Below are positions 29,381 through 39,016 of a DNA stretch of 59,424 bases, piece after piece. A program made the position numbers and the translations under genes. How positions within the stretch are numbered: the stretch's first letter is position 1; every line of letters begins with the position of its first letter. The notes beneath the pieces are model-generated. The model had not been told where the DNA came from, searched no databases, and saw only the letters and a program-made list of their open reading frames with translations. Source of the stretch: a virus (taxonomy: Duplodnaviria; Caudoviricetes). The DNA lies in the IMG/VR virus record IMGVR_UViG_3300048772_000090, positions 1 to 59,424 of that record, one strand, 5' to 3'.

Positions 29381-29388
29381 AGTATTGA

Positions 29389-29526: not shown

Positions 29527-29534
29527 ACATCTAA

Positions 29535-29666: not shown

Positions 29667-29683
29667 GTACTTATAAAACTTTT

Positions 29684-29763: not shown

Positions 29764-29784
29764 AAAACTTGTACTTCTAAACTT

Positions 29785-29910
29785 CGCGAAGCAGACGGGA
29801 GTCGAAACCCGTAGGAGTCATTAAAAGTGGCCCCTGTCACCATCCAAGAGAGACTTTCGAAAGTCCGTCTCGTCAACCTGCAATCTGGGTATCAGCCAGA
29901 AGGCTTCGCG
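29785..29910 (-). ncRNA. unknown tRNA-like structured RNA
   Basis: 8-bp terminal stem CGCGAAGC/GCTTCGCG, 3' T-arm-like ACGGG-TTTCGACT-CCCGT, three internal hairpins. Confidence 0.5.
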
Positions 29911-29952
29911 CTATTCCCCGCCGTCGCGGGAAACTCAAACTCAACATTCACA

Positions 29953-29981
29953 ACTCTAAGCGCAGTTCTAAAACTTGTCAA
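29953..29981 (-). promoter_or_regulatory. sigma70-like promoter of the Y RNA-Ro60 unit (TTGACA-17-TAGAGT)
   Basis: Perfect -35 with 17-nt spacer. Confidence 0.65.
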
Positions 29982-30015
29982 GCAAAATCTGCGCTTTATT
30001 TCCACAAATCTAAAA

Positions 30016-30090
30016 TGGAGCGGGAGAAGGGAATTGAACCCTCTGCGCCTTGCTTGGAAGGCAAGCACTCTACCGATGAGCTACTCCCGC
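30016..30090 (-). tRNA. tRNA-Gly(TCC)
   Basis: Cloverleaf; CTTGC-CTTCCAA-GCAAG; CCA. Confidence 0.92.
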
Positions 30091-30351
30091 CTATTTCTTC
30101 ACAACGTCCTTCCAGAACTCCACAACACTCTCAATCCCTGTATCGTCCATCAACTCGAAATCTACTTCCCCGATGGACTCTATCGAAAGGTCGCAGCATG
30201 TATCCACTTTGGCCTCCAGAGCCTTGCAGCGCATCACCTCTAGCTTCTCTTGGCACTGCATGACGGCGGATACCATATCGTCGGCACGGAAGACCATATC
30301 CGGGACAGGAGTACACTCACAACCTGATAACGTAGCAATGTAAACTGGCAT
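30091..30351 (-). CDS. hypothetical protein within tRNA operon 1
   Basis: GGGAGG RBS, start MPVYIATL, 86 aa. Confidence 0.6.
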   Translation of the reverse strand: MPVYIATLSGCECTPVPDMVFRADDMVSAVMQCQEKLEVMRCKALEAKVDTCCDLSIESIGEVDFELMDDTGIESVVEFWKDVVKK

Positions 30352-30387
30352 GTTTGAATCCTCCCGAACAATAGTAACACTGAAACA

Positions 30388-30465
30388 TGGTAGCGGATAC
30401 TGGACTTGAACCAGTCGCCTCAGCCTTATCAAGACTGCGCTCTTCTCAGGATGAGCTAATCCGCC
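30388..30465 (-). tRNA. tRNA-Ile(GAT)
   Basis: CAGTC-TTGATAA-GGCTG; CCA. Confidence 0.9.
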
Positions 30466-30477
30466 ACGTGAAATGGA

Positions 30478-30553
30478 TGGTACCCAGTAGAGGAGTCGAA
30501 CCTCTCTAGCCAGTTTGTAGGACTGGAGCCTGAAACCGATAGGCTAACCGGGC
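30478..30553 (-). tRNA. tRNA-Val(TAC), C33
   Basis: CCAGT-CCTACAA-ACTGG; CCA. Confidence 0.8.
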
Positions 30554-30558
30554 GAATA

Positions 30559-30634
30559 TGGCGCGAACGGGGAGATTCGAACTCCTGTCTCACTGATCGA
30601 CAATCAGTTGCTTTGGCCACTAAGCTACGTTCGC
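30559..30634 (-). tRNA. tRNA-Asp(GTC)
   Basis: ACTGA-TTGTCGA-TCAGT; G73; CCA. Confidence 0.88.
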
Positions 30635-30706
30635 AAAACTGTTAGGCCGTTCAGTCGCATCCAGAAGGGATATTCATTGATCCCTGCGCTTACTAGACCC
30701 GTAAAA

Positions 30707-30783
30707 TGGTGGGCGATGGCAGATTCGAACTGCCGACTGAAATTTAGGAAATTTCTGTGATTATCCAATTTCACCAAACGCCC
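30707..30783 (-). tRNA. tRNA-Arg(CCT)
   Basis: GAAAT-TTCCTAA-ATTTC; CCA. Confidence 0.88.
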
Positions 30784-30792
30784 AAAACTTGA

Positions 30793-30868
30793 TGGTCGAA
30801 CCGCTGGGATTCAGACCCAGAACTGTGTCTTCGGAGGGCACTGTGATATTCAGTTTCACCACGGCTCG
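30793..30868 (-). tRNA. tRNA-Arg(CCG)
   Basis: GTGCC-CTCCGAA-GACAC; atypical T-loop TCTGAAT; CCA. Confidence 0.8.
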
Positions 30869-30871
30869 AAA

Positions 30872-30945
30872 TGGTGCCGCAAAGGATACTCGAAATCCTG
30901 TTGGATGCGTGAGAAGCATCTATCCTACCCTTGAATGATTGCGGC
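30872..30945 (-). tRNA. tRNA-Glu(CTC)
   Basis: GATGC-TTCTCAC-GCATC; CCA. Confidence 0.85.
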
Positions 30946-30946
30946 A

Positions 30947-31024
30947 TGGTCCGAAGGACGAGACTCTAACTCGCTAGGAACGGCTTGAAGGGCCGCTTGC
31001 TCGATACACTTTGCATTCCTTCGG
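30947..31024 (-). tRNA. tRNA-Glu(TTC), C33, atypical D/T loops
   Basis: GCGGC-CCTTCAA-GCCGT; acceptor CCGAAGG/CCTTCGG; CCA. Confidence 0.65.
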
Positions 31025-31032
31025 ATAAAAGA

Positions 31033-31107
31033 TGGAGCATCCACCCCGAATCGAACGGGGATCACAACCTTAGAAGGGAAGTCTCTATCCGCTTGAGCTA
31101 TGGACGC
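31033..31107 (-). tRNA. tRNA-Arg(TCT)
   Basis: Loop CTTCTAA with a weak anticodon stem; CCA. Confidence 0.75.
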
Positions 31108-31108
31108 A

Positions 31109-31187
31109 TGGTCCCCGTGGCATGGATTTGAACCTGCGGCCTCTACCTTAAAGGGGTAGCACTCTAACCGGACTGAGTTACACGGGG
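31109..31187 (-). tRNA. tRNA-Lys(TTT), C33
   Basis: CTACC-CCTTTAA-GGTAG; CCA. Confidence 0.8.
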
Positions 31188-31193
31188 ATAAAC

Positions 31194-31268
31194 TGGTGGC
31201 AGCGCTGGGACTTTAACCCAGATCGAACTCCTTAAGAGGGAGGCATGTTGAATTAACACCACGCTGCC
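31194..31268 (-). tRNA. tRNA-Lys(CTT)
   Basis: CCTCC-CTCTTAA-GGAGT; T-loop TTAAAGT; CCA. Confidence 0.8.
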
Positions 31269-31270
31269 AT

Positions 31271-31364
31271 TGGTACCGGAAGAGGGAATCGAACCCGTCT
31301 AGCATCGGTTATCGACCGACTATATGAGGAGTATAAGGCCCCGCTGTGTCCTACACTTTCCGGC
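31271..31364 (-). tRNA. atypical tRNA-like RNA, probably Ile(TAT), with a long extra arm
   Basis: Acceptor GCCGGAA/TTCCGGT-ACCA and TTCGATT T-loop; tiny D-arm; loop CTTATAC; extra arm GTCGG-TCGATAA-CCGAT. Confidence 0.5.
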
Positions 31365-31367
31365 GAA

Positions 31368-31461
31368 TCTTAGGTGGTCGCTATAGCCTCCCCGCCTCAG
31401 TTTTGGGGCGATGTTGCTATTACAGAGCAGTCCTATCCCGTCGAATAGGAAGCGCCCAAGA
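31368..31461 (-). ncRNA. unknown structured RNA between tRNAs
   Basis: Terminal stem TCTTGGGCG/CACCTAAGA with internal hairpins. Confidence 0.4.
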
Positions 31462-31539
31462 TGGTGCCAGTGGACAGGATTGAACTGTCGGCCTCGTCGT
31501 TATGGGTGACGCGCTCTAAGCCTACTGAGCTACACTGGC
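31462..31539 (-). tRNA. tRNA-Met/Ile2(CAT), C33
   Basis: CGTCA-CCCATAA-CGACG; CCA. Confidence 0.82.
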
Positions 31540-31540
31540 A

Positions 31541-31615
31541 TGGCAGGGGAGGACGGAACCGAACCGTCAATTTCGGTTTTGGAGACCGAGAGTTTTCCTG
31601 TTAGCCTACTCCCCT
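31541..31615 (-). tRNA. tRNA-Trp(CCA)
   Basis: TCGGT-CTCCAAA-ACCGA; A1-U72, G73; CCA. Confidence 0.88.
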
Positions 31616-31625
31616 AAAAATTCAT

Positions 31626-31642
31626 TTCAATTGTCAACGAGC
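31626..31642 (-). promoter_or_regulatory. boxA-like antitermination element, operon 1
   Basis: GCTCGTTGACAATTGAA directly after the attenuator; no -10 at promoter spacing. Confidence 0.5.
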
Positions 31643-31699
31643 AAAAGTAAACCCCAGCCTGAGCCGGGGTCTGATAAAGCGGTGTTGCCGACAGACCCC
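31643..31699 (-). terminator. attenuator 1: antiterminator GGGGTCTG/CAGACCCC versus terminator ACCCCGGC-TCAG-GCTGGGGT-TTACTTTT
   Basis: Two mutually exclusive stems sharing ACCCC, starting right after the leader stop codon. Confidence 0.8.
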
Positions 31700-31771
31700 T
31701 CAAACGCGCATATCCCACCCGTCCCGCTTAATGCGGACTATGGTTTCGACGTTTTTGGTTGATCTGGTCAT
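31700..31771 (-). CDS. leader peptide 1 MTRSTKNVETIVRIKRDGWDMRV
   Basis: AGGA RBS; 23 codons plus TGA abutting the antiterminator; codons match downstream tRNAs. Confidence 0.75.
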   Translation of the reverse strand: MTRSTKNVETIVRIKRDGWDMRV

Positions 31772-31841
31772 CGTTTAATCCTAAATTGTGCTCTCATTAC
31801 CCACCGAGCAGGTGCATCCATGCTTTTACTGCACTTGAGAA

Positions 31842-31871
31842 ACTATATCACACGTCAAACTGAAAGCGCAA
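31842..31871 (-). promoter_or_regulatory. promoter of tRNA operon 1 (TTGCGC-18-TGnTATAGT)
   Basis: Extended -10; same 18-nt spacing as the early promoters. Confidence 0.55.
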
Positions 31872-31882
31872 GGAATATTTTA

Positions 31883-31961
31883 TGGTGCGCCCGGAGGGAC
31901 TTGAACCCCCTGCCTTTTGGTTCGTAGCCAAACGCTCTGAATCCAGATGAGCTACGGGCGC
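31883..31961 (-). tRNA. tRNA-Arg(ACG)
   Basis: TTTGG-CTACGAA-CCAAA; CCA. Confidence 0.92.
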
Positions 31962-31971
31962 AAACTTTTAT

Positions 31972-32061
31972 GAGGCGGCTTCATGCTACCCGGTCTAGCC
32001 GGACACGTGACCCGCTCTGACTGGCCCGGAGTTTCCTCCGCGTCTAGGCAGCGACCGCCTC
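31972..32061 (-). ncRNA. unknown multibranch structured RNA
   Basis: Terminal stem GAGGCGG/CCGCCTC; internal CGGAG-GAAA-CTCCG and CCGG-CTAGA-CCGG. Confidence 0.45.
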
Positions 32062-32077
32062 TGTAGTCACTCAAGCA

Positions 32078-32186
32078 TGGTCGGGTTTGCGAGTCTGCCA
32101 GTCTCGCACTAGAGCGCCCCATGCGCCCCGTGCTTTGATCCGTCCGTCCCGAAGGCTCTGGATCAGGCCGTTTACACTAGCACCCG
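32078..32186 (-). tRNA. atypical tRNA-Pro(TGG)-like RNA with a hairpin inserted in the D-loop
   Basis: C1-G72/A73 Pro-type end CCCGACCA; GGGCG-CATGGGG-CGCTC; TGATCC...GGATCA insert; 9-nt T-loop. Confidence 0.5.
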
Positions 32187-32194
32187 GTAAATGA

Positions 32195-32271
32195 TGGTCG
32201 GAGAGGTGAGATTCGAACTCACGTCATCTCGCTCCCAGGGCGAGTGCCTGAAGCCTCTAGGCTACTCTCCG
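32195..32271 (-). tRNA. tRNA-Pro(TGG), C33
   Basis: CTCGC-CCTGGGA-GCGAG; C1-G72; CCA. Confidence 0.88.
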
Positions 32272-32276
32272 ACTAT

Positions 32277-32352
32277 TGGTGCCAACTCAGCGAATCGAAC
32301 GCTGTTCCATTCCTCTTCAGGGAATTGTAATCACCAGACCTACGCAGTTGGC
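32277..32352 (-). tRNA. tRNA-Phe(GAA)
   Basis: ATTCC-CTGAAGA-GGAAT; CCA. Confidence 0.82.
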
Positions 32353-32360
32353 AAATCATT

Positions 32361-32435
32361 TGGTGGAGACGGAGGGAATCAAACCCTCAACTTCGGAGTG
32401 CAAAACCGATGTGTTCTCATTAGCACCACGTCCCC
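32361..32435 (-). tRNA. tRNA-Ala(TGC)
   Basis: G3:U70; loop TTTGCAC; CCA. Confidence 0.88.
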
Positions 32436-32439
32436 AAAC

Positions 32440-32607
32440 TTATTTACCGAAAATCTTTTCCATCAATTCCTTCATCCACGGATACTCTTCCGGCTTGCAG
32501 AGGATCATAGGGTACTCATACTTATACGGACCTAGAGTCTCCGCATACGCTTTCTGAAGCATCTCTAGTGTGACCTGACCCGTATTCTCCTTCGCGTCGT
32601 AGTACAT
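32440..32607 (-). CDS. 55-aa hypothetical protein (MYYDAKENTG...KIFGK)
   Basis: AGGAGG RBS; fills the gap between tRNA-His and tRNA-Ala; below the ORF-track cutoff. Confidence 0.6.
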   Translation of the reverse strand: MYYDAKENTGQVTLEMLQKAYAETLGPYKYEYPMILCKPEEYPWMKELMEKIFGK

Positions 32608-32627
32608 TGCTTCCTCCTAACAAACTT

Positions 32628-32703
32628 TGGGGCGGGATGTGGTACTCGAAACCACGTAGACTGATGCCACAGATCAGCGCCTTACCTCTCGGCCAATCCC
32701 ACC
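32628..32703 (-). tRNA. tRNA-His(GTG)
   Basis: G-1:C73; CTGAT-CTGTGGC-ATCAG; CCA. Confidence 0.88.
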
Positions 32704-32710
32704 ACATCTT

Positions 32711-32792
32711 TGGAGCACGGAGAGGGATTCGAACCCCCGGTGTTGGATGCCTGCTTACAAAACAGGTGCAGTCGCCGCTGTGCCATCCGTGC
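32711..32792 (-). tRNA. tRNA-Thr(TGT), enlarged variable loop
   Basis: CCTGT-TTTGTAA-GCAGG; CCA. Confidence 0.85.
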
Positions 32793-32902
32793 AAATCTTA
32801 ACCGGAATCTCTCTTCCGCAGTCACGCCACTAGACTCGCTGCTCGGACTTTCCGAGTGTGCTATACCCCGGACGGGGTTACGTCGGGCAGGTGTCGCCCA
32901 TT

Positions 32903-32978
32903 TGGAGCCGTCTGCGAGAATTGAACTCGCTGCCTCCGAATTACCAATCCGGTGCTCTTCCATACGAGCTACGACGGC
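32903..32978 (-). tRNA. tRNA-Thr(GGT)
   Basis: CCGGA-TTGGTAA-TTCGG; CCA. Confidence 0.88.
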
Positions 32979-33521
32979 CTATCCTACGGTTGCGTACTTC
33001 GTGTCTCCAGCGTTGTCAAAGTACAGATAAGGACGCCACTTTTCATCCTCAGCGCCCATCGACTTCAAGATGAAACGTGATGTATGTATCGAGGCCGCAC
33101 GAGGCTTGTGGATCAACTTCATCCCCGCTTCCTCTGGTGTCCTGTCCGCCTTACGACGATTGTCCTCGACACAGCAGGCTACAAGGTTACTCCATGTGTC
33201 CTTTCCTCCTTGCGCCCGAGGTACAATGTGATCCAGCGTCAACTTAGACGGATGGAAAACAATGCCACAGTACATGCAAGTGTTCCGATCCCGCAAGAAG
33301 ATGTTCTTCCTGCTCAAAATCTGGACGCGAACAGGAATGTACCGAAACTCCTTCAAGCGAATTACCGAAGGGAACATGATTCCGGGATAAATCTCTTGTC
33401 CTGTGTGCTCTTGAATAACAGCCCGATCCTTGCAAACCAATGTGAGAGCACGTCGGCAGGAACGAATGCTGATCGGCTCAAATGAGCTATTTAAAACTAG
33501 CGTTGCTTTGTTCATGTTCAT
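32979..33521 (-). CDS. HNH endonuclease
   Basis: TLVLNSSFEP, RDRNTCMYCG, LTLDHIVPRAQGG, WSNLVACC, KADRTPEEAGM. Confidence 0.9.
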   Translation of the reverse strand: MNMNKATLVLNSSFEPISIRSCRRALTLVCKDRAVIQEHTGQEIYPGIMFPSVIRLKEFRYIPVRVQILSRKNIFLRDRNTCMYCGIVFHPSKLTLDHIVPRAQGGKDTWSNLVACCVEDNRRKADRTPEEAGMKLIHKPRAASIHTSRFILKSMGAEDEKWRPYLYFDNAGDTKYATVG

Positions 33522-33565
33522 AACGCACTCTCCTTTCTGTTTACTTTACCACTAACTGCGCATCC

Positions 33566-33639
33566 AGCCTACGTTATTTGGGTGACGGATTAAATGTCCG
33601 CCTGTACGTCCCGTCGCATCTCGCGGTACAGCGTAGGCT
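33566..33639 (-). ncRNA. unknown structured RNA
   Basis: Terminal stem AGCCTACG/CGTAGGCT enclosing two hairpins. Confidence 0.4.
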
Positions 33640-33647
33640 AGAAACTT

Positions 33648-33724
33648 TGGAGCAGGCGTCCCGAGTCGAACGGGAATCGTCTTTCTTACGAGGAAAGTGC
33701 ATAAGCCACTTCTGCCACGCCTGC
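33648..33724 (-). tRNA. tRNA-Thr(CGT)
   Basis: CTTTC-CTCGTAA-GAAAG; CCA. Confidence 0.88.
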
Positions 33725-33736
33725 GTAAATCTAAGA

Positions 33737-33811
33737 TGGAGCGGGGTATCGGGATTGAACCGATGATCTTCGGTCTGGCAGACCAATGCTTTGCCACTCA
33801 GCTAACCCCGC
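33737..33811 (-). tRNA. tRNA-Gly(GCC)
   Basis: TTGGT-CTGCCAG-ACCGA; U73; CCA. Confidence 0.9.
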
Positions 33812-33816
33812 AAAAA

Positions 33817-33890
33817 TGGTTCGGTCGCTCCGAGTCGGACGGAGATAGAGAGTGTCAAAGGCTCTCGAATTGCCATTATTCGACGACCGA
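33817..33890 (-). tRNA. tRNA-Gln(TTG)
   Basis: Loop CTTTGAC; U1-A72; CCA. Confidence 0.8.
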
Positions 33891-33896
33891 TCAAAC

Positions 33897-33971
33897 TGGT
33901 TCCGGGTGGAGGATTCTGACCCCCATCTTTAGGTTCAGAGCCTAAAATCCTCACATTTGGACGAACCCGGA
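33897..33971 (-). tRNA. tRNA-Gln(CTG)
   Basis: TTAGG-CTCTGAA-CCTAA; U1-A72; CCA. Confidence 0.82.
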
Positions 33972-33982
33972 TCAATCCTTGC

Positions 33983-34000
33983 TATTCAGTTGTCAAACTC
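33983..34000 (-). promoter_or_regulatory. boxA-like antitermination element, operon 2
   Basis: GAGTTTGACAACTGAATA resembles rrn-spacer TTTGAAAACTGAATA; no -10 at promoter spacing. Confidence 0.5.
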
Positions 34001-34120
34001 CCGATCCCACTAGGGGCGGTGAAACGAAACTTTGCGACGGTGGCTATAACCTGCCCGCTGCCACCGCCGAAGTCCACGTCTGTAGTTAGCGGCCTACCTA
34101 CTCCGGGTCGTATCAAACTT

Positions 34121-34197
34121 TGGCTCATCAGGTCGGCCTCGGACCGACATCCCCGAAATTAACAGTTTCGTGCTCTGCCTACTTGAGCTACCGATGA
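34121..34197 (-). tRNA. tRNA-Asn(GTT)
   Basis: CGAAA-CTGTTAA-TTTCG; G73; CCA. Confidence 0.85.
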
Positions 34198-34207
34198 ACA
34201 TTACTGC

Positions 34208-34296
34208 AAAACTTTGGGGTCACCAGATTTTCTCCGGTGACCCCATCTACTGCTCGCTGTTTTATAAATGTCAGTCGAGAGAAGGACGGCCACCGG
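34208..34296 (-). terminator. attenuator 2: antiterminator CCGGTGGCC/GGTCACCGG versus hairpin GGGGTCACCGGA-GAAAA-TCTGGTGACCCC-AAAGTTTT
   Basis: Mutually exclusive stems; the U-tract is imperfect. Confidence 0.7.
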
Positions 34297-34369
34297 GCGC
34301 ATGATTACCGCGCGGCTGTGCTTGCGTTGCCGCTGGGGTAAAGGTTCGCGTTGTGGCTGCGTTCTTCAT
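34271..34369 (-). CDS. leader peptide 2 MKNAATTRTFTPAATQAQPRGNHAPGGRPSLD
   Basis: ATG a few nt after the predicted TSS; codons 3-29 all encode amino acids of the downstream tRNA set. Confidence 0.8.
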   Translation of the reverse strand: MKNAATTRTFTPAATQAQPRGNHAPGGRPSLD

Positions 34370-34381
34370 GTCTCTTTTGTC

Positions 34382-34410
34382 AATGTACCCGCGTTGAGAT
34401 TATTTGTCAA
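34382..34410 (-). promoter_or_regulatory. promoter of tRNA operon 2 (TTGACA-17-TACATT)
   Basis: Near-consensus sigma70. Confidence 0.75.
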
Positions 34411-34417
34411 CTGCTAT

Positions 34418-35078
34418 TTACCAGATTCCGCGAACATAGTCCTTGTAACGCCAACTCTTGCCAGTAATGTGGTCGTTTACGTCCCCGTCCTTCACGCGGA
34501 TGGTACGGCGTTTGTCGCCACGCTGTCCACTTCCAACCTGCTTCTTCCTATCGGCTGAAATGCTCCCGTGCCTATGTTCCTTATCGGCAGCGAACAGTCT
34601 TGCGGTCAGGATCGCTAGAGCAATATCCTTGTTCCGCTTCTGTGATCGCTCGTCTTCGCAGCGAACCGTTAGGCCCGTAGGAATATGCTTGAGGATGACG
34701 CAGGTTTCGAGTTTGTTGGCGTTCTGTCCGCCCTTGCCTCCTGAACGGGTAGTGGAGTATTCCAGATCGTTAGGGGATACAGAAAATTCGTATGGCTGTG
34801 GTTCTGGGAAGGTAGCGACCGTAACCGTAGAGGTTTGGACTCGTCCACTACGCTCTGTAGGCGGGATTCTCTGCCATCTGTGGCCGCCTGACTCGTTAGC
34901 AAATATCTTCTCAACTCCCTTTCCGGTAACTCGGAAAACAACAATTCCCGGTCTTTCCTCAGTCAATTCGAGGTCAAAGCCCCCTCCGCTCCGCAAGTTT
35001 TGTGTAGATGCGGAATTGGTCGATCACAAGTAATTTAGCATCCATTCCTCCCTCAGCAGCCCTAATCTCAATTATCAT
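34418..35078 (-). CDS. short class-I peptide chain release factor (lacks domain 1), expressed through a +1 frameshift; join(35078..34977, 34975..34418), about 219 aa
   Basis: AGGAG RBS; MIIEIRAAEGG (RF domain 2 start) in frame 0; ESGGHRWQRIPPTE...RVQTS, GGKGGQNANK, RSQKRN and RGDKRRT in frame +1; junction CGGAGG-GGG-CTT-TGA-C. Confidence 0.88.
34973..34988 (-). promoter_or_regulatory. prfB-type programmed +1 frameshift signal
   Basis: Internal SD GGAGG, 3-nt spacer, CTT TGA C; same layout as the RF2 signal AGGGGG-TAT-CTT-TGA-C. Confidence 0.88.
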
Positions 35079-35228
35079 TTCATTTCTCCTATTCGCGTCA
35101 GGATAAAACCCGAATGGCCCCATTTCTGAGGCCACTCGCGGCTCGTGCAAGGACATTATGTACGCAGGCACAATTAGGAGCGGTACGCTCCCTGGTTGAT
35201 GCGGCCTTTCGACCGCGAGATAAGCATA

Positions 35229-35579
35229 CTATTCACATGGGGTTAGGTCAAGGTAATAGTTCTTACCCGGAACAAACGTGTCGCAGACATCGGGATTATC
35301 AACAAGGAACGTCATGGTTCCGCTTGGCGTTGCGGCAGCGAAACTAACATCCTCTGGATTACTTGTGTCGTACTGCGCGGCTAACCGCACGTTCTGAGCA
35401 AACTTTCCAGTAGAGATGTACTTGACTTTCTTACCATTATCCGTGTACTCAGTTCCAACCAGAGCAGCATAGTCCTCCGGCGTTACTGAGTCCTCGAAAA
35501 CTCGCTTTGAAACGGCGTTGTCAGTCAGCTCTACGCTAACCACACGGAACTTGCAGCGGGTACGAATCGCTTCTGGCAT
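35229..35579 (-). CDS. hypothetical protein
   Basis: AGGAG RBS; RCKFRV...FAAATPSG...PGKNYYLDLTP. Confidence 0.75.
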   Translation of the reverse strand: MPEAIRTRCKFRVVSVELTDNAVSKRVFEDSVTPEDYAALVGTEYTDNGKKVKYISTGKFAQNVRLAAQYDTSNPEDVSFAAATPSGTMTFLVDNPDVCDTFVPGKNYYLDLTPCE

Positions 35580-35675
35580 AAACTCTCCTAAATTTGGTTG
35601 GGAAGCACCGCTATGCTTGCGGCATCACTGAGCCACGCCAAGGTTATCCTGCGGCTCACATGGACAGCATAACAT

Positions 35676-35714
35676 AAAACAGCAATGGCTCCCACTTAAG
35701 TTGAGAGCCACTGC
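35676..35714 (-). terminator. intrinsic terminator closing the ncRNA cluster
   Basis: GCAGTGGCTCTCA-ACTTAAG-TGGGAGCCATTGC-TGTTTT. Confidence 0.7.
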
Positions 35715-35742
35715 CGGTCGTGCCTTCTATTTATAGGAAATC

Positions 35743-36789
35743 TTTGCAGCGGGTCGGATTCCTATACCGGCATGGCGGTCTGCACTAGGTGATGCCTCTT
35801 TCGAGGGCTTATGCTGGCTCTCGCTGCCGCGTGGGTTTCTCACCCATCCGCCGAACTGCTAATCCCTTCCGGGACTCGGACGACCTAGCCAAGTTAGCGG
35901 GTTCCTCCCCGCCGCCACTGCAAACTTTGCCCGTTCGTATTGAACGGAGCCGAAGTCACCAACAATCGAGTGCTGGACTCCTACTCCGATCTCTGCGCCA
36001 CCCCATCTTGGGTACTCGCGTCAGGATTGCAGATCGTTTCGCTTGGAATTCTTTGCAGCGTTCTGCTCTCTCGTTACTCCTCGCGGCGTCTAGAAGCTAC
36101 CGATTCTGGAAGACCGAACACCTCAAAAGAGTGGAGTCTTGGGGTCTAAAGGAGTGTCCTACCACTCTTCCGCTGCAAACCTTTGAGGCGCGGCTCCGAT
36201 TCTGGCTAACCAGTCACCGTTTTATCCTTTGCGGGAGAGACCTGTCAGTTCCGCCTCAAACTTTTCCCGTCCCAAACCGATAAGAGAAGGTGGCCCCTCG
36301 GACGGCCACTAACCGCCCATTCTCTCCGGCTCGACTTAGCAGACCGATAAGGCGTTCTGAACAGCCTCCGGCCCGCGACAGGAAACTTTATAATCCCCTA
36401 AAATGTGGGGCCGTTCGGCCTTGCAGATACTAGGCTTCGACCGATCTTACAGCTTATTATGGACGATCAATCGGCTTGGCGTCCAGCTATTACCTCTCCA
36501 CCGTTCTCTTCCTACTAGGCCCCTTCGTCGGGGGTATTCTAAAATCCAGCGGCGTTGCGTCATTGTCGCTGCGAAAGTATGCCTACGTTCGCGTTCTCGG
36601 ATGGCCCCGGATTTCTCCGTCTGACGCTATCCCTGATGTTTGCTTGCCGCTGAAACTCAAACTATGCTCGTCTTTCCGAGCCGCCAAGGGACGTTACCGT
36701 TACCCTACGCGTCTTTCCGTGTCTCGTCACTCCCGTTACTGAGGACGTTTTGAATGGCCGTCTATGAACGTGAGTCGAAGTCTCCCAGC
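35743..36789 (-). ncRNA. tandem cluster of at least six unknown structured RNAs
   Basis: No RBS-supported ORF; consecutive units closed by 7-11-bp terminal stems, several separated by the AAAGTTT-type spacer also seen after tRNA CCA ends. Confidence 0.6.
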
Positions 36790-36797
36790 CAGATCAA

Positions 36798-36867
36798 TGG
36801 TTGCGCAGGGAAGAGTTGAACTTCCGTCCTTGGCCTTATGAGAGCTAGGCATACCGCTATCCGCGCA
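36798..36867 (-). tRNA. 70-nt tRNA(CAT)-like RNA with a reduced D-arm
   Basis: Acceptor TGCGCGG/CTGCGCA-ACCA, loop CTCATAA, T-arm GGAAG-TTCAACT-CTTCC. Confidence 0.55.
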
Positions 36868-36878
36868 GGACAAATATC

Positions 36879-37460
36879 TCATCCTGCGCCAACGATGTCA
36901 AGTGGTATTTTATAGAATATGGTGCGTTGAGCAGGAGTCGAACCTGCGGTGTTTGCTCGTAGAGTCACAGATTTACAGTCTGCTGCCTTCGCCACTGGGC
37001 CACCAACGCATAACTTTTCATATTTCTTTGGAGAACGACGTTTTTGCCGACACTCCCTGCAATCTGTTTCAAGTCCTCTACGCTTTGACCTATCCTTCGT
37101 AAAATCTCCAACTGGAAGCCAATCCTGATGCCCATAACACCATGCCATTCCGGGAGGATCAATGCGTCTCAAATGGGCGTTGGCGTCCATTGCTCGGAGA
37201 TCACGTTTGGTTTTCTCTAAATGGCAACCGTGACAACGTGCTTTGCATTTCTCCAATTCTTCCAATCTTTTAGCATCACCCCAACTCCATACAGTGTGGC
37301 TCACTTTTGTCGAAGGATCAACATGATCTAGTTCAAGATTGTCCCAAGTCCCGCAATCCACACATGGACCGTTCTCTGCAAACCACTTTCTCCTACGTTC
37401 TTTGACGACTCGCTCATACCACGCCTTTTGTGCTGCCTTCCACTTCACCATATCTCTCAT
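36879..37460 (-). CDS. HNH endonuclease; the reading frame runs through tRNA-Tyr
   Basis: CVDCG..NLELDHVDP...CHGCH plus a second CYGH/CREC zinc finger. Confidence 0.8.
   Translation of the reverse strand: MRDMVKWKAAQKAWYERVVKERRRKWFAENGPCVDCGTWDNLELDHVDPSTKVSHTVWSWGDAKRLEELEKCKARCHGCHLEKTKRDLRAMDANAHLRRIDPPGMAWCYGHQDWLPVGDFTKDRSKRRGLETDCRECRQKRRSPKKYEKLCVGGPVAKAADCKSVTLRANTAGSTPAQRTIFYKIPLDIVGAG
36920..37009 (-). tRNA. tRNA-Tyr(GTA)
   Basis: GCAGA-CTGTAAA-TCTGT; long variable region; CCA. Confidence 0.9.
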
Positions 37461-37466
37461 GGCGGA

Positions 37467-37495
37467 AGTATACAGCTATAACGGCGGAAATACAA
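37467..37495 (-). promoter_or_regulatory. promoter for a leaderless HNH transcript (TTGTAT-17-TATACT, ATG 6 nt downstream)
   Basis: Spacing places +1 on the A of the ATG at 37460. Confidence 0.55.
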
Positions 37496-37511
37496 CAACT
37501 AAACACATTAA

Positions 37512-37604
37512 TGGAGGAAGAAGCGAGATTTGAACTCGCGGTGCCGGTCACCCGGACACTCCCGTTTTCAAAACGGGCGCTTTAGACCACTCAGCCATCC
37601 TTCC
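37512..37604 (-). tRNA. tRNA-Ser(TGA)
   Basis: CCCGT-TTTGAAA-ACGGG; long variable arm; CCA. Confidence 0.9.
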
Positions 37605-37608
37605 AAAC

Positions 37609-37694
37609 TGGCGGTAGGGAAGCGATTTAAACGCTTAATACCTTTCGGTATGCTCGGTTTCGAATCGAGGTGTCCCATCAATGACAGCCCTACC
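37609..37694 (-). tRNA. tRNA-Ser(CGA)
   Basis: Loop TTCGAAA; long variable arm; atypical D/T loops; CCA. Confidence 0.75.
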
Positions 37695-37698
37695 AAAC

Positions 37699-37788
37699 TG
37701 GCAGTGAGGATGGGATTCCAACCCACGATACCCTTACAGGTATTCTTGCTTTCCAAGCAAGCGCCTTCGAGCACTCGGCCACCTCACT
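37699..37788 (-). tRNA. tRNA-Ser(GGA)
   Basis: CTTGC-TTGGAAA-GCAAG; long variable arm; CCA. Confidence 0.85.
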
Positions 37789-37793
37789 GTAAA

Positions 37794-37884
37794 TGGCGAT
37801 GAGACTGAGATTCGAACTCAGGACACCCTTTTGAGGTGCTTCGTCTTAGCAGGACGATGCCTTAAGCCACTCGGCCATCTCACC
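37794..37884 (-). tRNA. tRNA-Ser(GCT)
   Basis: TCGTC-CTGCTAA-GACGA; long variable arm; CCA. Confidence 0.92.
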
Positions 37885-37893
37885 GTAAAACTT

Positions 37894-37970
37894 TGGTGCG
37901 CGACCGGGAAATCGAATCCCGAAACACCTCTGTTTGAAAAAGGCGGCTTTGCCTATTTGCCTAGTCGCGC
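37894..37970 (-). tRNA. tRNA-Leu(CAA), short variable loop
   Basis: CCTTT-TTCAAAC-AGAGG; A73; CCA. Confidence 0.82.
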
Positions 37971-37979
37971 ATAACCTTT

Positions 37980-38056
37980 TGGTGCCAGTGGGGGAAATCG
38001 AATCCCCAAACATATCGCCCTAAACGATACCGCTTTGCCTATTTGCGTACACTGGC
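37980..38056 (-). tRNA. tRNA-Leu(TAG), short variable loop
   Basis: TATCG-TTTAGGG-CGATA; CCA. Confidence 0.82.
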
Positions 38057-38064
38057 ATAAAACT

Positions 38065-38143
38065 TGGTGCCGGGAGCGGAAATCGAATCCGCACTGTCAC
38101 AGCCTTCTTAGGACTGCCGCTTTGCCATTTTGCGTACCCCGGC
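38065..38143 (-). tRNA. tRNA-Leu(AAG), A34, short variable loop
   Basis: CAGTC-CTAAGAA-GGCTG; CCA. Confidence 0.8.
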
Positions 38144-38149
38144 TAAACT

Positions 38150-38227
38150 TGGTGCGCTAGGGCGAATTCGAATCGCCAAACTCTTCCGTCTGAGGAAAGA
38201 AGGTATACCAATTCCCATCACTAGCGC
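38150..38227 (-). tRNA. tRNA-Leu(CAG), short variable loop
   Basis: CTTTC-CTCAGAC-GGAAG; CCA. Confidence 0.82.
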
Positions 38228-38230
38228 ATT

Positions 38231-38245
38231 TAATTGTCAAAGAAC
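38231..38245 (-). promoter_or_regulatory. boxA-like antitermination element, operon 3
   Basis: GTTCTTTGACAATTA, close to boxA GCTCTTTAACAA. Confidence 0.6.
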
Positions 38246-38322
38246 TGGAGAGCGGTGTCAGATTTCAACTGACGATTAGCAGTTTTGCAGACTGCTGCGT
38301 TTGAGCACTTCGCCAACCGCTC
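38246..38322 (-). tRNA. tRNA-Cys(GCA)
   Basis: GCAGT-CTGCAAA-ACTGC; U73; CCA. Confidence 0.88.
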
Positions 38323-38323
38323 A

Positions 38324-38403
38324 TGGTGTGGGCATCGGGATTCGAACCCGAAGAATAGACAATTTTTAGGACTGTCCGGCTATACCTGTTCGCCTATACC
38401 CAC
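38324..38403 (-). tRNA. tRNA-Leu(TAA), C33, short variable region
   Basis: ACAGT-CCTAAAA-ATTGT; CCA. Confidence 0.78.
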
Positions 38404-38503
38404 AAACGAAAACCCCTCCGTTTTGAGTGGAGGGGTTCGTCACAACCTTGGGAGGATTACACCTTATATCCCTCTCCAACGCGCAAGCGAACCCCCGCTC
38501 AAA
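38404..38503 (-). terminator. attenuator 3: antiterminator TTTGAG-CG-GGGGTTCG/CGAACCCC-TCCA-CTCAAA versus terminator AACCCCTCC-loop-GGAGGGGTT-TTCGTTT
   Basis: Mutually exclusive stems; the terminator ends directly at the 5' end of tRNA-Leu. Confidence 0.82.
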
Positions 38504-38547
38504 CTGAGCGATGACAGGCAATACGAGTTGGATAAGAGGTTCTTCAT
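38464..38547 (-). CDS. leader peptide 3 MKNLLSNSYCLSSLSLSGGSLARWRGI
   Basis: 13 of codons 4-17 are Leu/Ser/Tyr/Cys, the amino acids of the downstream tRNAs. Confidence 0.82.
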   Translation of the reverse strand: MKNLLSNSYCLSSLSLSGGSLARWRGI

Positions 38548-38563
38548 ATCAGATCGCAAAGTT

Positions 38564-38592
38564 AGATTACATTCCTGCCGAGCGGTTGTCAA
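38564..38592 (-). promoter_or_regulatory. promoter of tRNA operon 3 (TTGACA-17-TAATCT)
   Basis: Near-consensus sigma70. Confidence 0.72.
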
Positions 38593-38599
38593 GCGGTTT

Positions 38600-39016
38600 T
38601 TACGGAGTTGGCGTTCCGAAAGTGCTTGCGATCTCTGTCGGCACCTCAACGGCAGCAACCACTGTCACTGTGTCCGTGCCGCTCAGACCATACACTGAGT
38701 CTCCGTAGGTGTCCGTTACGGTTCCCGGTGCTACTGCTGTCCATGTTGCTGTGCCGTCGCCATTATCAACGACGCTTGCGATGGTTGGATCGCTGCTTAC
38801 TACGGTGATGTCTGCGCCAACAACAGGAACGTTTCCTGCGGCGTTCGACTCTGTTACCGTCTCGATGACGGTCTGGCCTACCGTAAGGGTGATTGGCATG
38901 GTAACTCCTTCAAAATGACTGTGGATTTGGGTGGGACGGTGGGAACGAAGGATTTCAAGCACTTCTTTTAGTTCGTGCCTGATTTCCTCCAAAAGATGGA
39001 TTTCATGGTGAGTCAT
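38600..39016 (-). CDS. Ig-like (Big-2-like) domain protein; an internal start at MPITLTVG is possible
   Basis: Thr/Val-rich, VSSDPTIASV...TAVAPGTVT. Confidence 0.6.
   Translation of the reverse strand: MTHHEIHLLEEIRHELKEVLEILRSHRPTQIHSHFEGVTMPITLTVGQTVIETVTESNAAGNVPVVGADITVVSSDPTIASVVDNGDGTATWTAVAPGTVTDTYGDSVYGLSGTDTVTVVAAVEVPTEIASTFGTPTP

What the first reader, a model, noticed from the sequence alone, without database searches (positions are those of the whole stretch)
30016..38592. Three phage tRNA operons, each gated by a codon-matched leader-peptide attenuator
Seen: 38 tRNA genes are split into three minus-strand units with the same head: promoter, 23-32-codon ORF, overlapping antiterminator/terminator hairpins, then tRNAs with one boxA-like site. 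Each leader is built from codons read by its own downstream tRNAs, and the three codon sets are nearly disjoint. The match reaches isoacceptor level. Gly(GCC) and Arg(ACG) sit behind the leader using GGT/GGC and CGA/CGC/CGT. Gly(TCC), Arg(TCT) and Arg(CCG) sit behind the leader using GGG, AGA and CGG. Established: trp/his/pheST-type attenuation couples ribosome stalling on a leader to read-through, and host anticodon nucleases (PrrC, RloC, VapC) deplete tRNAs during infection. Inference: the leaders poll almost the whole genetic code and switch on only the tRNA block that is missing. I know of no description of this for tRNA arrays, but I could not search the literature.
Basis: partly seen in the sequence, partly recalled or inferred. 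Interest (0 to 1): 0.97.

Follow-up and report, generated by a model that had tools for sequence, protein, structure and literature searches.

The report
Codon-matched leader attenuators before phage tRNAs
A fragment of a very large phage genome carries three blocks of tRNA genes, each preceded by a tiny gene built mostly from the codons those tRNAs read and by a stop-transcription hairpin, which looks like a self-adjusting switch for tRNA supply that I could not find described anywhere.

Summary
The core observation is real. The window is an IMG/VR huge-phage contig. It has 34 tRNA genes (not 38) in three minus-strand blocks. Each block is headed by a short ATG ORF (27, 32 and 23 codons) and a GC-rich hairpin with a T-run just before the first tRNA. 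Each ORF is enriched, in frame only, in codons read by its own block: 15/26, 24/31 and 10/22, against backgrounds of 0.20, 0.32 and 0.33. Leaders 1 and 2 rank first of 279 small ORFs in the window.

Related huge-phage contigs keep such leaders as ORFs. Their composition follows the tRNA content: Leu/Tyr, Pro/Met/Phe, Val/Ala/Gly/Asp/Glu/Cys and Gln/His/Arg/Asn/Lys blocks each have a matching leader. The terminator 5' arm can pair with the 3' part of each leader, and the own codons lie upstream of that part. This is the geometry of trp/his-type attenuation.

Not supported: the boxA sites, a clear third promoter, and strong isoacceptor-level matching. The anticodon-nuclease rationale is untested and no transcript ends could be measured. 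Seven full-text searches found no description of leader-peptide attenuation of tRNA genes.

Verdict: probable ribosome-mediated attenuators of tRNA operons, a new variant of a known mechanism.

The parts
38564..38592 (-). Promoter-like site P1: TTGACA, 17 nt, TAATCT
   Evidence: Read. The -35 is perfect; the -10 matches 3 of 6, so one search's scan does not list it. Related heads carry TTGACA plus TATTAT/TATTCT/TATTCA at the same place.
38464..38547 (-). Leader ORF 1, 27 codons plus stop: MKNLLSNSYCLSSLSLSGGSLARWRGI
   Evidence: 15 of 26 codons are read by block 1 tRNAs against a background of 0.20 (P = 3e-5). Rank 1 of 279 small ORFs. Identical in L038. No Shine-Dalgarno-like motif upstream.
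38487..38497 (-). Antiterminator strand of head 1 (CGGGGGUUCGC, the Gly-Gly codons), complementary to the terminator's 5' arm
   Evidence: duplex -17.0 kcal/mol against shuffled mean -9.9; 1.3% of 300 shuffles are as good; terminator probability is 0.00-0.17 with the ribosome at codons 2-14 and 0.60-0.74 from codon 15 to the stop.
38404..38438 (-). Terminator T1: GAACCCCUCC, 9-nt loop, GGAGGGGUU, then UUCGUUU; it ends at the 5' end of tRNA-Leu(TAA)
   Evidence: -16.7 kcal/mol.
36920..38403 (-). tRNA block 1: Leu(TAA), Cys, Leu(CAG, AAG, TAG, CAA), Ser(GCT, GGA, TGA), an inserted ORF (36879-37460), Tyr
34382..34410 (-). Promoter-like site P2: TTGACA, 17 nt, TACATT
   Evidence: 10 of 12. The promoter and the sequence up to the ATG are identical in relatives L035-L038, while the leader differs.
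34271..34369 (-). Leader ORF 2, 32 codons plus stop: MKNAATTRTFTPAATQAQPRGNHAPGGRPSLD
   Evidence: 24 of 31 codons are read by block 2 tRNAs against 0.32 (P = 3e-7). Rank 1 of 279. The variant in L035-L038 keeps the frame through +3 and -9 indels.
34279..34297 (-). Antiterminator strand of head 2 (CCCGGUGGCCGUCCUUCUC)
   Evidence: duplex -22.2 against -14.9; 0 of 300 shuffles are as good; the 5' arm is paired at 0.77 with an early ribosome and 0.49 at the stop.
34206..34245 (-). Terminator T2: 13-bp stem UGGGGUCACCGGA / UCUGGUGACCCCA, then AAGUUUUGC
   Evidence: -25 kcal/mol. The T-run is short and offset, so one search does not list it. The stem is kept in L035-L038 through changes on both arms.
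31883..34197 (-). tRNA block 2: Asn, Gln x2, Gly(GCC), Thr(CGT), HNH ORF (32979-33521), Thr(GGT, TGT), His, Ala, Phe, Pro, Arg(ACG)
31842..31871 (-). Weak candidate promoter P3: TTGCGC, 18 nt, TATAGT
   Evidence: Read. Not listed. Both hexamers and their spacing are conserved in L130 (TTGCGC, 18 nt, TAGAGT) while the DNA after them diverges.
31700..31771 (-). Leader ORF 3, 23 codons plus stop: MTRSTKNVETIVRIKRDGWDMRV, with AGGA 9 nt upstream of the ATG
   Evidence: 10 of 22 codons under strict wobble (P = 0.14) and 13 of 22 under extended wobble (P = 0.04). 17 of 22 at amino-acid level against 0.47 (P = 0.004). The L130 homologue scores 17 of 30 strict (P = 0.006).
31691..31700 (-). Antiterminator strand of head 3 (AGGGGUCUGU), abutting the stop codon
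   Evidence: -16.7 against -10.8; 1% of shuffles are as good; it pairs with CAGACCCC, which overlaps the terminator's 5' arm.
31639..31672 (-). Terminator T3: AGACCCCGGC UCAG GCUGGGGUUU, then ACUUUUGCUC
   Evidence: 10 pairs, 6 GC. Both arms are changed in L130 (ACCCUCUC / GAGAGGGU).
30016..31615 (-). tRNA block 3: Trp, Met(CAT), Lys x2, Arg(TCT), Glu(CTC), Arg(CCG, CCT), Asp, Val, Ile, an ORF (30091-30432), Gly(TCC)

Best explanation
Each of the three tRNA blocks is a transcription unit whose expression depends on reading through an intrinsic terminator. The terminator sits between a promoter-proximal leader ORF and the first tRNA.

The leader is a ribosome-mediated attenuator of the trp/his/ilv type. 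Its first two thirds are built mainly from codons read by the block's own tRNAs. Its 3' part (the G-rich 'Gly-Gly' codons, or in head 3 the bases right after the stop) is complementary to the terminator's 5' arm.

If decoding of the own codons is slow because charged cognate tRNA is scarce, the ribosome lags. The 3' part of the leader then pairs with the terminator's 5' arm (antiterminator), and RNA polymerase runs on into the tRNA genes. If those codons are read quickly, the ribosome covers or unwinds the 3' part and reaches the stop. The terminator then forms and transcription ends.

The likely physiological result is block-by-block negative feedback that matches phage tRNA supply to the cell's decoding capacity.

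Shown: the anatomy, the codon enrichment, the alternative pairings, and their conservation and co-variation in relatives. Inferred: that the ORFs are translated, that the hairpins terminate, and the direction of the switch.
For: (1) Anatomy. Promoter-like site, short ATG ORF, hairpin plus T-run and first tRNA lie within about 190 nt in all three heads. No promoter-like site lies between terminator and tRNA, so any transcript must pass the hairpin.

(2) Codon match. 15/26, 24/31 and 10/22 own-block codons against backgrounds of 0.20, 0.32 and 0.33. At amino-acid level, 15/26, 27/31 and 17/22 with P = 2.6e-5, 4e-6 and 3.8e-3. Ranks are 1, 1 and 15 of 279 small ORFs. The match is absent in the other two frames. 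The cognate leader-to-block assignment totals 49, against 30 for the next best of 6 permutations.

(3) Conservation and co-variation. In 16 of 16 hand-listed heads from the window and related contigs, the own-block fraction exceeds background. Blocks of other composition have other leaders: Tyr/Leu blocks follow MNNITLSPSLSLLAYYLSL.. and similar; Pro/Met/Phe blocks follow MTKMRPMPMFPPSPM.. and similar; Val/Ala/Gly/Asp/Glu/Cys blocks follow ..VVACAGTVAAEAAAV..; a Gln/His/Arg/Asn/Lys block follows ..KSSRKHQRRNNR... The cognate assignment is the best of 24 permutations in G003 and of 6 in G002. The leader 2 variant in L035-L038 keeps its frame through +3 and -9 indels and keeps its composition, while the promoter is unchanged. 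The leader 3 homologue in L130 is also enriched (17/30, P = 0.006).

(4) Switch geometry. In 14 of 14 heads the leader holds a segment complementary to the terminator's 5' arm that beats at least 93% of 300 shuffles; 12 of 14 beat at least 97.7%. L130 does likewise. Own-amino-acid codons make up 169 of 280 codons upstream of that segment but only 18 of 111 from it to the stop (Fisher 6e-16, heads not independent). With a ribosome footprint masked, the 5' arm is paired (0.7-0.99) for early A-site positions and freed (0.1-0.5) for late ones in most heads. Full equilibrium switching is seen for window head 1, L002_a, L004_a and L002_b.

(5) Compensatory change. T2 changes from GGGGUCACCGG/CUGGUGACCCC to GAGGCCCUACCGG/CUGGUGGGGCCUC. 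T3 changes from ACCCCGGC/GCUGGGGU to ACCCUCUC/GAGAGGGU, with the antiterminator changed in step.

(6) An RNA-library contig spans P1, leader 1, T1, tRNA-Leu and tRNA-Cys (38224-38665, 3 differences). This is compatible with read-through, but DNA carry-over is not excluded.
Against: There is no experimental evidence of translation, termination or read-through; contigs cannot show RNA ends.

Leader 1 has no Shine-Dalgarno-like motif and leader 2 only GAGA, whereas the phage's long ORFs mostly carry AGGA or GGAG (19 and 15 of 41).

Only T3 passes the tool's strict terminator rule. T2 has a short, offset T-run.

Equilibrium folding shows no switch for head 2 (terminator probability 0.98 at every ribosome position), so a kinetic argument is needed there.

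Leader 3 is weak at codon level (P = 0.14 strict). It uses CGC twice (read by block 2's Arg-ACG), and GAA and ATA, which no phage tRNA reads under strict wobble.

Tyr/Leu-type leaders of relatives keep 2-4 Ser codons although no Ser tRNA is in their block. Pro/Met/Phe-type leaders keep conserved Arg, Thr and Cys codons without such tRNAs, and their hairpins lack a canonical U-run.

In the complete genome G003, two tRNA clusters (Ser x4 + Leu; Ile/Thr/Gln) follow protein-coding DNA with no leader. More distant relatives (RF identity of about 56% or less) showed no obvious leaders by eye.

Related heads are not independent samples, and the first heads in relatives were picked by eye before the composition-blind scan.
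Confidence: 0.72

Rival explanations
1. The architecture is the same, but the physiological signal is amino-acid supply or aminoacylation in the infected cell (a starvation sensor), not tRNA abundance. The tRNA blocks would then be raised when the matching amino acids are scarce.
For: Ribosome-mediated attenuators respond to charged tRNA, which depends on both the amino acid and the tRNA (established for trp/his; abstract start of PMC1183508 seen in the listing). Nothing in the sequence separates the two inputs.
Against: Making more tRNA does not relieve amino-acid starvation, so the output would not answer the signal. The match between sensor codons and the tRNA genes under control fits feedback on tRNA supply better.
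Confidence: 0.1
2. The short ORFs and hairpins are independent small genes or transcript ends (for instance terminators of the upstream genes). The tRNAs would be made from phage-specific promoters or by constitutive leak-through. The composition match would then be chance or a by-product of GC-rich structure.
For: Huge phages often use their own RNA polymerases with unknown promoters (recalled). P1 and P3 are weak by the sigma-70 rule and T1 and T2 fail the strict terminator rule. 7 of 32 rows of the structure-only scan show no match to the tRNAs.
Against: The match is frame-specific and ranks 1, 1 and 15 of 279. It recurs with different amino-acid sets in relatives. The own codons lie upstream of the pairing segment. 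Promoter-like sites lie upstream of the hairpins, not downstream.
Confidence: 0.06
3. Translation-independent RNA switch: the codon-rich leader RNA binds the block's tRNAs directly (a T-box-like idea with many specifier triplets) and so changes the terminator/antiterminator choice.
For: The leader is complementary, triplet by triplet, to the anticodons of the downstream tRNAs by construction.
Against: No T-box or other riboswitch family matched 29000-40000 at E up to 1. ATG, stop and frame are kept through indels of 3 and 9 nt. The enrichment exists in one frame only. Isolated triplet pairing is too weak without a T-box scaffold (established knowledge).
Confidence: 0.04
4. Opposite polarity: efficient translation of the leader keeps the ribosome close behind the polymerase and suppresses the hairpin, so plentiful tRNA gives more tRNA (positive feedback or simple coupling).
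For: A terminator placed a few bases after a translated gene is repressed by the ribosome (PMC4824070, abstract start seen in the listing).
Against: The terminator's 5' arms begin 25-29 nt after the stop codons in the window, beyond a terminating ribosome's reach. Masking the late leader frees the 5' arm for the terminator rather than blocking it. Positive feedback on tRNA synthesis has no obvious use.
Confidence: 0.04

Closest known systems
Leader-peptide (ribosome-mediated) transcription attenuators of amino-acid operons: trp, his, leu, thr, pheA, and the multivalent ilvGMEDA/ilvBN and thr leaders of enterobacteria (recalled; general principle in the abstract start of PMC1183508, listing)
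   Same: A promoter-proximal short ORF with regulatory codons, an intrinsic terminator before the regulated genes, and an antiterminator that shares a strand with the terminator and is controlled by ribosome position. The Pro/Met/Phe-type heads even show the 1:2 / 2:3 / 3:4 design. Leaders with mixed amino acids recall the ilv and thr leaders.
   Different: The regulated genes are tRNAs, not biosynthetic enzymes. The leaders carry up to 9 different own amino acids spread over 15-23 codons rather than a run of one to three. Synonymous codons are varied. One genome carries several such heads that divide the code between them. The setting is a phage.
pheST (phenylalanyl-tRNA synthetase) attenuator of E. 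coli (recalled)
   Same: Leader-peptide attenuation controlling a component of the translation apparatus that serves the codons in the leader.
   Different: It controls a synthetase for one amino acid. Here the tRNAs themselves are controlled, for many amino acids.
T-box riboswitches (Rfam RF00230)
   Same: They couple the state of a specific tRNA to terminator/antiterminator choice upstream of translation-related genes.
   Different: T-boxes bind uncharged tRNA directly, without translation, through Stem I and the T-box sequence. No such family matched here, and the elements here are ORFs.
Phage tRNA arrays (T4, T5, mycobacteriophages, vibriophages, huge phages; recalled)
   Same: Large clusters of tRNA genes interspersed with homing-endonuclease ORFs. 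The nearest GenBank relatives of the neighbouring release-factor-like gene are uncultured huge phages of 485-735 kb.
   Different: I found no report of leader ORFs or attenuators in front of such arrays.

Membership tests
Ribosome-mediated (leader-peptide) transcription attenuator | Short ORF with start and stop codon between promoter and regulated genes | tested here: met
   ORFs of 27, 32 and 23 codons lie downstream of promoter-like sites. They are kept as ORFs in relatives L035-L038 and L130.
Ribosome-mediated (leader-peptide) transcription attenuator | Regulatory codons in the leader are cognate to what the operon supplies | tested here: met
   Own-block codons 15/26, 24/31 and 10/22 against 0.20, 0.32 and 0.33. 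Ranks 1, 1 and 15 of 279. Leader 3 is significant only at amino-acid level (P = 0.004) and in its L130 homologue.
Ribosome-mediated (leader-peptide) transcription attenuator | Intrinsic terminator between leader and regulated genes | tested here: inconclusive
   Strong hairpins (-16 to -25 kcal/mol) followed by T-runs are present in all three heads. Only T3 passes the tool's strict rule. Termination itself was not measured.
Ribosome-mediated (leader-peptide) transcription attenuator | Antiterminator that excludes the terminator and is exposed or hidden according to ribosome position | tested here: met
   The leader's 3' segment is complementary to the terminator's 5' arm in 14 of 14 heads and in L130. 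Footprint masking changes pairing of the 5' arm as expected. Head 2 shows the change only in the pre-terminator transcript (0.77 to 0.49), not at equilibrium.
Ribosome-mediated (leader-peptide) transcription attenuator | Read-through rises when the cognate charged tRNA is limiting; it depends on leader translation | not testable with these tools
   This needs reporters, Term-seq or Ribo-seq. RNA-library contigs cover the heads but cannot show ends or levels.
T-box riboswitch | Stem I specifier loop and conserved T-box sequence recognised by the Rfam model | tested here: not met
   No T-box match in 29000-40000 on either strand at E up to 1.
rrn-type boxA (Nus factor) antitermination site | Match to the boxA consensus more often than chance and at a fixed place in each unit | tested here: not met
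   14 matches with up to 3 mismatches against 16.7 expected (the consensus was recalled from memory). One match (31631-31643) overlaps a GTTGACAA motif that is conserved in L130. Its meaning is unknown.

The most novel reading that the evidence does not exclude
A clade of huge soil and peat phages runs a distributed, codon-resolved feedback network. The tRNA complement is divided into blocks. Each block has its own leader that samples the codons it serves and is transcribed only when ribosomes slow on those codons. The phage would thus tune tRNA supply to demand and would automatically refill exactly the tRNAs that the host lacks, shuts off or cleaves, for instance with anticodon nucleases. 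This would be the first case of tRNA genes controlled by translational attenuation, and a natural sensor of decoding speed for most of the genetic code.
Probability: 0.3. Interest if true: 0.95.

Novelty: new variant of a known kind. Interest (0 to 1): 0.87.

Why it matters
How phages regulate their tRNA arrays is essentially unknown. tRNA genes in general are thought to be controlled at promoters and by processing, not by sensing their own function.

A leader ORF that reports how fast its block's codons are decoded would be a direct homeostat for tRNA supply. It would explain why these phages sort tRNAs into blocks by amino acid. It would link tRNA carriage to host tRNA depletion and defence. 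It would also offer compact, modular natural sensors of codon-specific decoding speed for synthetic biology.

The idea is directly testable with short reporter constructs in cell-free systems, without culturing the phage.

Tried and rejected
GenBank phages. Megablast and blastn of the array found only isolated tRNA matches. A tblastn search with the release-factor-like protein found uncultured huge phages. The two best (LR745208, LR745206) have no tRNA within 20 kb of the gene, so they gave no heads.

Ro60-like protein as bait in IMG/VR. It returned 13 loci, none with a head-3-type leader. An exact 25-nt pattern from T3 found nothing in IMG/VR.

MAFFT alignment of five Tyr/Leu-type heads. It put the hairpin arms out of register, so I did not use the count of structure pairs on it. 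I compared stems directly and with duplex energies instead. The cognate versus non-cognate duplex matrix was not discriminating, because GC-rich arms cross-pair.

Isoacceptor-level test. It was nearly uninformative because blocks cover almost all codons of their amino acids. TTA occurs only in the one Leu-type leader whose block has Leu(TAA), but 21 Leu codons without TTA in four relatives is not significant (my estimate, not computed).

Long mixed leaders in L018 and L026 (40 codons before arrays of 27 and 45 tRNAs). These cannot be tested, because their blocks cover nearly all amino acids.

Composition-blind scan. Of 32 rows, 22 belong to the leader families described, several being the same head on overlapping contigs. 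3 are ambiguous (L018, L026, L110). 7 show no match (L014, L028 in an alternative frame, L054, L078 twice, L083, L104). It missed L005_b.

RNA libraries. Parts of the stretch without contig cover, and small word shares, say nothing.

Supplementary files of papers were not consulted. For all papers I saw only search listings and the starts of abstracts.

Full report
WHAT THE WINDOW IS. The window is one whole IMG/VR virus record of 59,424 bases, with a CheckV completeness estimate of 63%. It encodes phage-type replication and nuclease proteins: a DnaB-like helicase, an SbcC-like protein and an exonuclease. It has no close relative among 50,697 GenBank phage records at DNA level. The release-factor-like gene inside the tRNA region has its nearest GenBank relatives in uncultured phages of 485-735 kb. 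It has many relatives in IMG/VR and metagenome contigs of up to 455 kb. RNA and DNA runs that hold parts of the stretch are labelled peat or wetland metagenomes.

CHECK OF THE OBSERVATION. ARAGORN finds 34 tRNA genes, all on the minus strand between 30016 and 38403. Rfam adds only a sub-threshold match at 36802-36866.

The genes fall into three blocks:
- Block 1, 38403-36920: Leu x5, Cys, Ser x3, Tyr.
- Block 2, 34197-31883: Asn, Gln x2, Gly-GCC, Thr x3, His, Ala, Phe, Pro, Arg-ACG.
- Block 3, 31615-30016: Trp, Met, Lys x2, Arg-TCT/CCG/CCT, Glu-CTC, Asp, Val, Ile, Gly-TCC.

In front of each block lies an ATG ORF:
- Leader 1, 38547-38464: MKNLLSNSYCLSSLSLSGGSLARWRGI.
- Leader 2, 34369-34271: MKNAATTRTFTPAATQAQPRGNHAPGGRPSLD.
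- Leader 3, 31771-31700: MTRSTKNVETIVRIKRDGWDMRV.

Each is followed by a GC-rich hairpin and a T-run ending 0-23 nt before the first tRNA. By the tool's strict rules only T3 and promoter P2 are listed. T1 has a 9-nt loop. T2 has a short T-run 3 nt after the stem. P1 has a perfect -35 but 3 of 6 in the -10. Head 3 has only a weak TTGCGC-18-TATAGT candidate.

A boxA-like consensus (recalled) is not more frequent than chance, with 14 matches against 16.7 expected.

IS THE CODON MATCH MORE THAN CHANCE? With strict wobble, the phage tRNAs read 53 of 61 sense codons and the three blocks read disjoint sets. The leader-by-block matrix is 15/5/5, 2/24/2 and 1/6/10.

Against the codon usage of the window's long ORFs, the own-block fractions are 0.58 vs 0.20 (P = 3e-5), 0.77 vs 0.32 (P = 3e-7) and 0.45 vs 0.33 (P = 0.14; 0.59 vs 0.38, P = 0.04 with extended wobble). 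At amino-acid level they are 15/26, 27/31 and 17/22 (P = 2.6e-5, 4e-6, 3.8e-3).

Among all 279 ATG ORFs of 20-35 codons in the window, leaders 1 and 2 rank first for their block. Leader 3 ranks 15th under strict wobble and 2nd under extended wobble. The other two frames of the same DNA give 5-6/26, 13-14/31 and 5-6/22, so the signal lies in the codons, not in base composition. The cognate assignment totals 49 matched codons, against 30 for the next best of the six permutations. Together the leaders use 48 distinct sense codons and all 20 amino acids.

Isoacceptor-level precision is only suggestive. Leader 2 uses only CGA/CGC/CGT and GGT/GGC. Leader 3 uses AGA, CGG and GGG but also CGC twice (Fisher P = 0.06). 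Overall, 178 of 191 own-amino-acid codons are readable by the anticodons present, against 171.8 expected.

The release-factor-like protein served as bait and returned 26 IMG/VR loci and 80 metagenome loci. Extra stretches of three records were fetched, and one further locus, L130, came from a small ORF of block 3.

Near-identical relatives:
- L038 carries the same leader 1.
- L035-L038 carry a leader 2 variant, MKTHSATTRTFTPAAQPQGNRASGGHLPLD. It differs by many substitutions and by indels of +3 and -9 nt, yet keeps frame, stop and composition. The promoter and the sequence up to the ATG are identical, and the terminator stem is changed on both arms.
- L130 has the layout of blocks 2 and 3 and a leader 3 homologue, MRQTFKHESISIRTGKRVDGWDMRVCEGWDD. 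17 of its 30 codons are read by its own block (P = 0.006). It has a terminator changed on both arms, an antiterminator changed in step, and conserved TTGCGC-18-TA(T/G)AGT and AGGATT motifs.

More distant relatives sort their tRNAs differently, and their leaders differ accordingly:
- Tyr/Leu blocks follow MNNITLSPSLSLLAYYLSLPRGGVFNG, MTNLTLSLTLYSLLSGLHGGVFIG, MNRVFLASLRLYSYLSGG.. and MNRAYLATLLYSPLSG...
- Pro/Met/Phe blocks follow MTKMRPMPMFPPSPMGRGVAGL, MNTMRPFSGFRPYTPPS.., MNFTRPMPTFRPCMPTMRGVAGL and others.
- Val/Ala/Gly/Asp/Glu/Cys blocks follow 43-46-codon leaders rich in exactly these residues.
- A Gln/His/Arg/Asn/Lys block follows MTFMTAKSSRKHQRRNNRW...

All 16 hand-listed heads exceed background. 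The cognate assignment is the best of 24 permutations in G003 and of 6 in G002.

Caveats on the relatives:
- The first heads in relatives were noticed by eye.
- The later composition-blind scan (ORF + hairpin + T-run + tRNA) returned 32 rows. 22 belong to these families, 3 are ambiguous and 7 show no match.
- In the complete 455-kb genome, two tRNA clusters have no leader.
- Relatives below about 56% bait identity showed none by eye.
- Tyr/Leu-type leaders keep Ser codons without Ser tRNAs in the block.
- Pro/Met/Phe-type leaders keep Arg, Thr and Cys codons without such tRNAs. There, CGACC repeats pair with GGUCG in the leader's tail.

HOW IT MOST LIKELY WORKS. In 14 of 14 heads examined, and in L130, the leader contains a segment complementary to the terminator's 5' arm that is better than at least 93% of 300 shuffles. 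The segment is usually the G-rich 'Gly-Gly' codons in the last third of the ORF. In window head 3 it is the bases abutting the stop.

Own-amino-acid codons make up 169 of 280 codons upstream of this segment but 18 of 111 from it to the stop. In the window the upstream figures are 12/15, 22/23 and 17/22.

I folded the transcript up to the terminator loop with a 28-nt ribosome footprint masked. The 5' arm is paired (about 0.7-0.99) when the A-site is in the first two thirds of the leader. It is freed (about 0.1-0.5) when the ribosome sits on the last third or at the stop. With the full hairpin present, an equilibrium switch appears for window head 1 (0.00-0.17, then 0.60-0.74), L002_a, L004_a and L002_b. 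It does not appear for head 2, whose 13-bp terminator wins at equilibrium, so a kinetic choice must be assumed there.

The terminator 5' arms start 25-29 nt after the stop codons, out of reach of a terminating ribosome. The Pro/Met/Phe-type heads show a full 1:2, 2:3, 3:4 arrangement.

This is the logic of trp/his-type attenuation. Slow decoding of the own codons leaves the antiterminator strand free and lets polymerase enter the tRNA genes. Fast decoding leads to termination. The natural reading is negative feedback on tRNA supply, block by block.

Translation of the leaders, termination at the hairpins and the polarity of the switch are all inferred. Leader 3 has AGGA 9 nt before the ATG, leader 2 only GAGA, and leader 1 nothing comparable, whereas the phage's long ORFs mostly carry AGGA or GGAG.

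EXPRESSION DATA. Fifteen RNA-labelled runs hold small shares of the stretch. In the four laid, contigs with 0-3 differences cover parts of the region. One spans P1, leader 1, T1, tRNA-Leu(TAA) and tRNA-Cys (38224-38665). Contigs cannot show RNA ends, strand or level, and DNA carry-over is possible. This only shows that the sequence occurs in RNA libraries.

COMPARISON WITH WHAT IS KNOWN. The anatomy meets the defining features of leader-peptide attenuators that can be tested in silico. The functional feature cannot be tested here.

It is not a T-box, since there is no Rfam match at E up to 1. It is not supported as a boxA system.

It differs from known attenuators in four ways: the regulated genes are tRNAs; the leaders mix up to nine amino acids with varied synonymous codons; several heads divide the code within one genome; and the setting is a huge phage. 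The closest in spirit are the pheST attenuator and the multivalent ilv/thr leaders (recalled).

Seven full-text searches found no description of leader-peptide or attenuator control of tRNA genes or phage tRNA arrays. They used terms on leader peptide, attenuation, tRNA operon/array/genes, phage-encoded or viral tRNA, and huge phages. I saw only listings and abstract starts. Subscription journals and supplements were not searched.

VERDICT. The best explanation is a family of ribosome-mediated attenuators that gate tRNA blocks according to decoding of their own codons (confidence about 0.7). The anticodon-nuclease rationale remains speculation. I rate it a new variant of a known kind of mechanism, of high interest, and cheaply testable in cell-free systems.

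Noticed in passing
window 27935-29326 (-) and 29402-29512 (-): A Ro60-like TROVE protein (PF05731, 50.6 bits; phrog_850) lies directly downstream of a Y-RNA-like (YrlA, RF02553) match. That match scores 33.9 bits, below the gathering score of 69 (E = 2.5e-4). Both sit just after the last tRNA of the array, so this may be a phage Ro/Y-RNA module.
   Followed up: partly
window 34418-34996 (-): A short release-factor-like protein (192 aa, RF-1 domain with GGQ plus the end of a PCRF domain) is embedded in the tRNA arrays here and in over 100 related huge-phage contigs. In relatives it sits inside the Pro/Met/Phe block.
   Followed up: partly
window 35600-36880 (-): An ORF-poor stretch. Bases 35700-36000 are 96-99% identical to relative L036, more than the flanking coding DNA (89-95%). 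It ends in a 15-bp hairpin plus T-run at 35716-35680, folds with z = -2.5, has no Rfam match, and is covered by RNA-library contigs. It is a candidate unknown non-coding RNA.
   Followed up: partly
window 32979-33521 (-) and 36879-37460 (-): An HNH endonuclease ORF (PF01844) and a second Cys/His-rich ORF without a Pfam match interrupt tRNA blocks 2 and 1. The second overlaps the 5' part of tRNA-Tyr.
   Followed up: no
window 31631-31643 (-); L130 about 2865-2880: A GTTGACAA / ATTGACAA motif between terminator T3 and tRNA-Trp is conserved in L130 although the flanks diverge. Similar CTTTGACAA motifs lie at 38234-38246 and 33013-33025. It is too close to the tRNA to be a usual -35 element, and its meaning is unknown.
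   Followed up: partly
L004 7907-8006, L005 8936-9033, L087 3538-3641: Pro/Met/Phe-type heads have a fifth element. The terminator-like hairpin's 3' arm (GUCGGGGC) can also pair with GCCCCGAC just before tRNA-Pro. L005 shows a compensatory change (GACGGGG / CCCCGUC). These hairpins lack a canonical U-run.
   Followed up: partly
L030 (G003:16500-27500), L019, L026, L027, L065/L066: Related huge phages carry tRNAs with stop-codon-reading anticodons (CTA, some TCA). This suggests suppressor tRNAs or stop-codon reassignment in part of this group.
   Followed up: no
window 31462-31539 (-): The tRNA called Met(CAT) in block 3 could be an Ile2 (lysidine) tRNA. That would make the ATA codon of leader 3 an own codon. 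I did not examine this.
   Followed up: no
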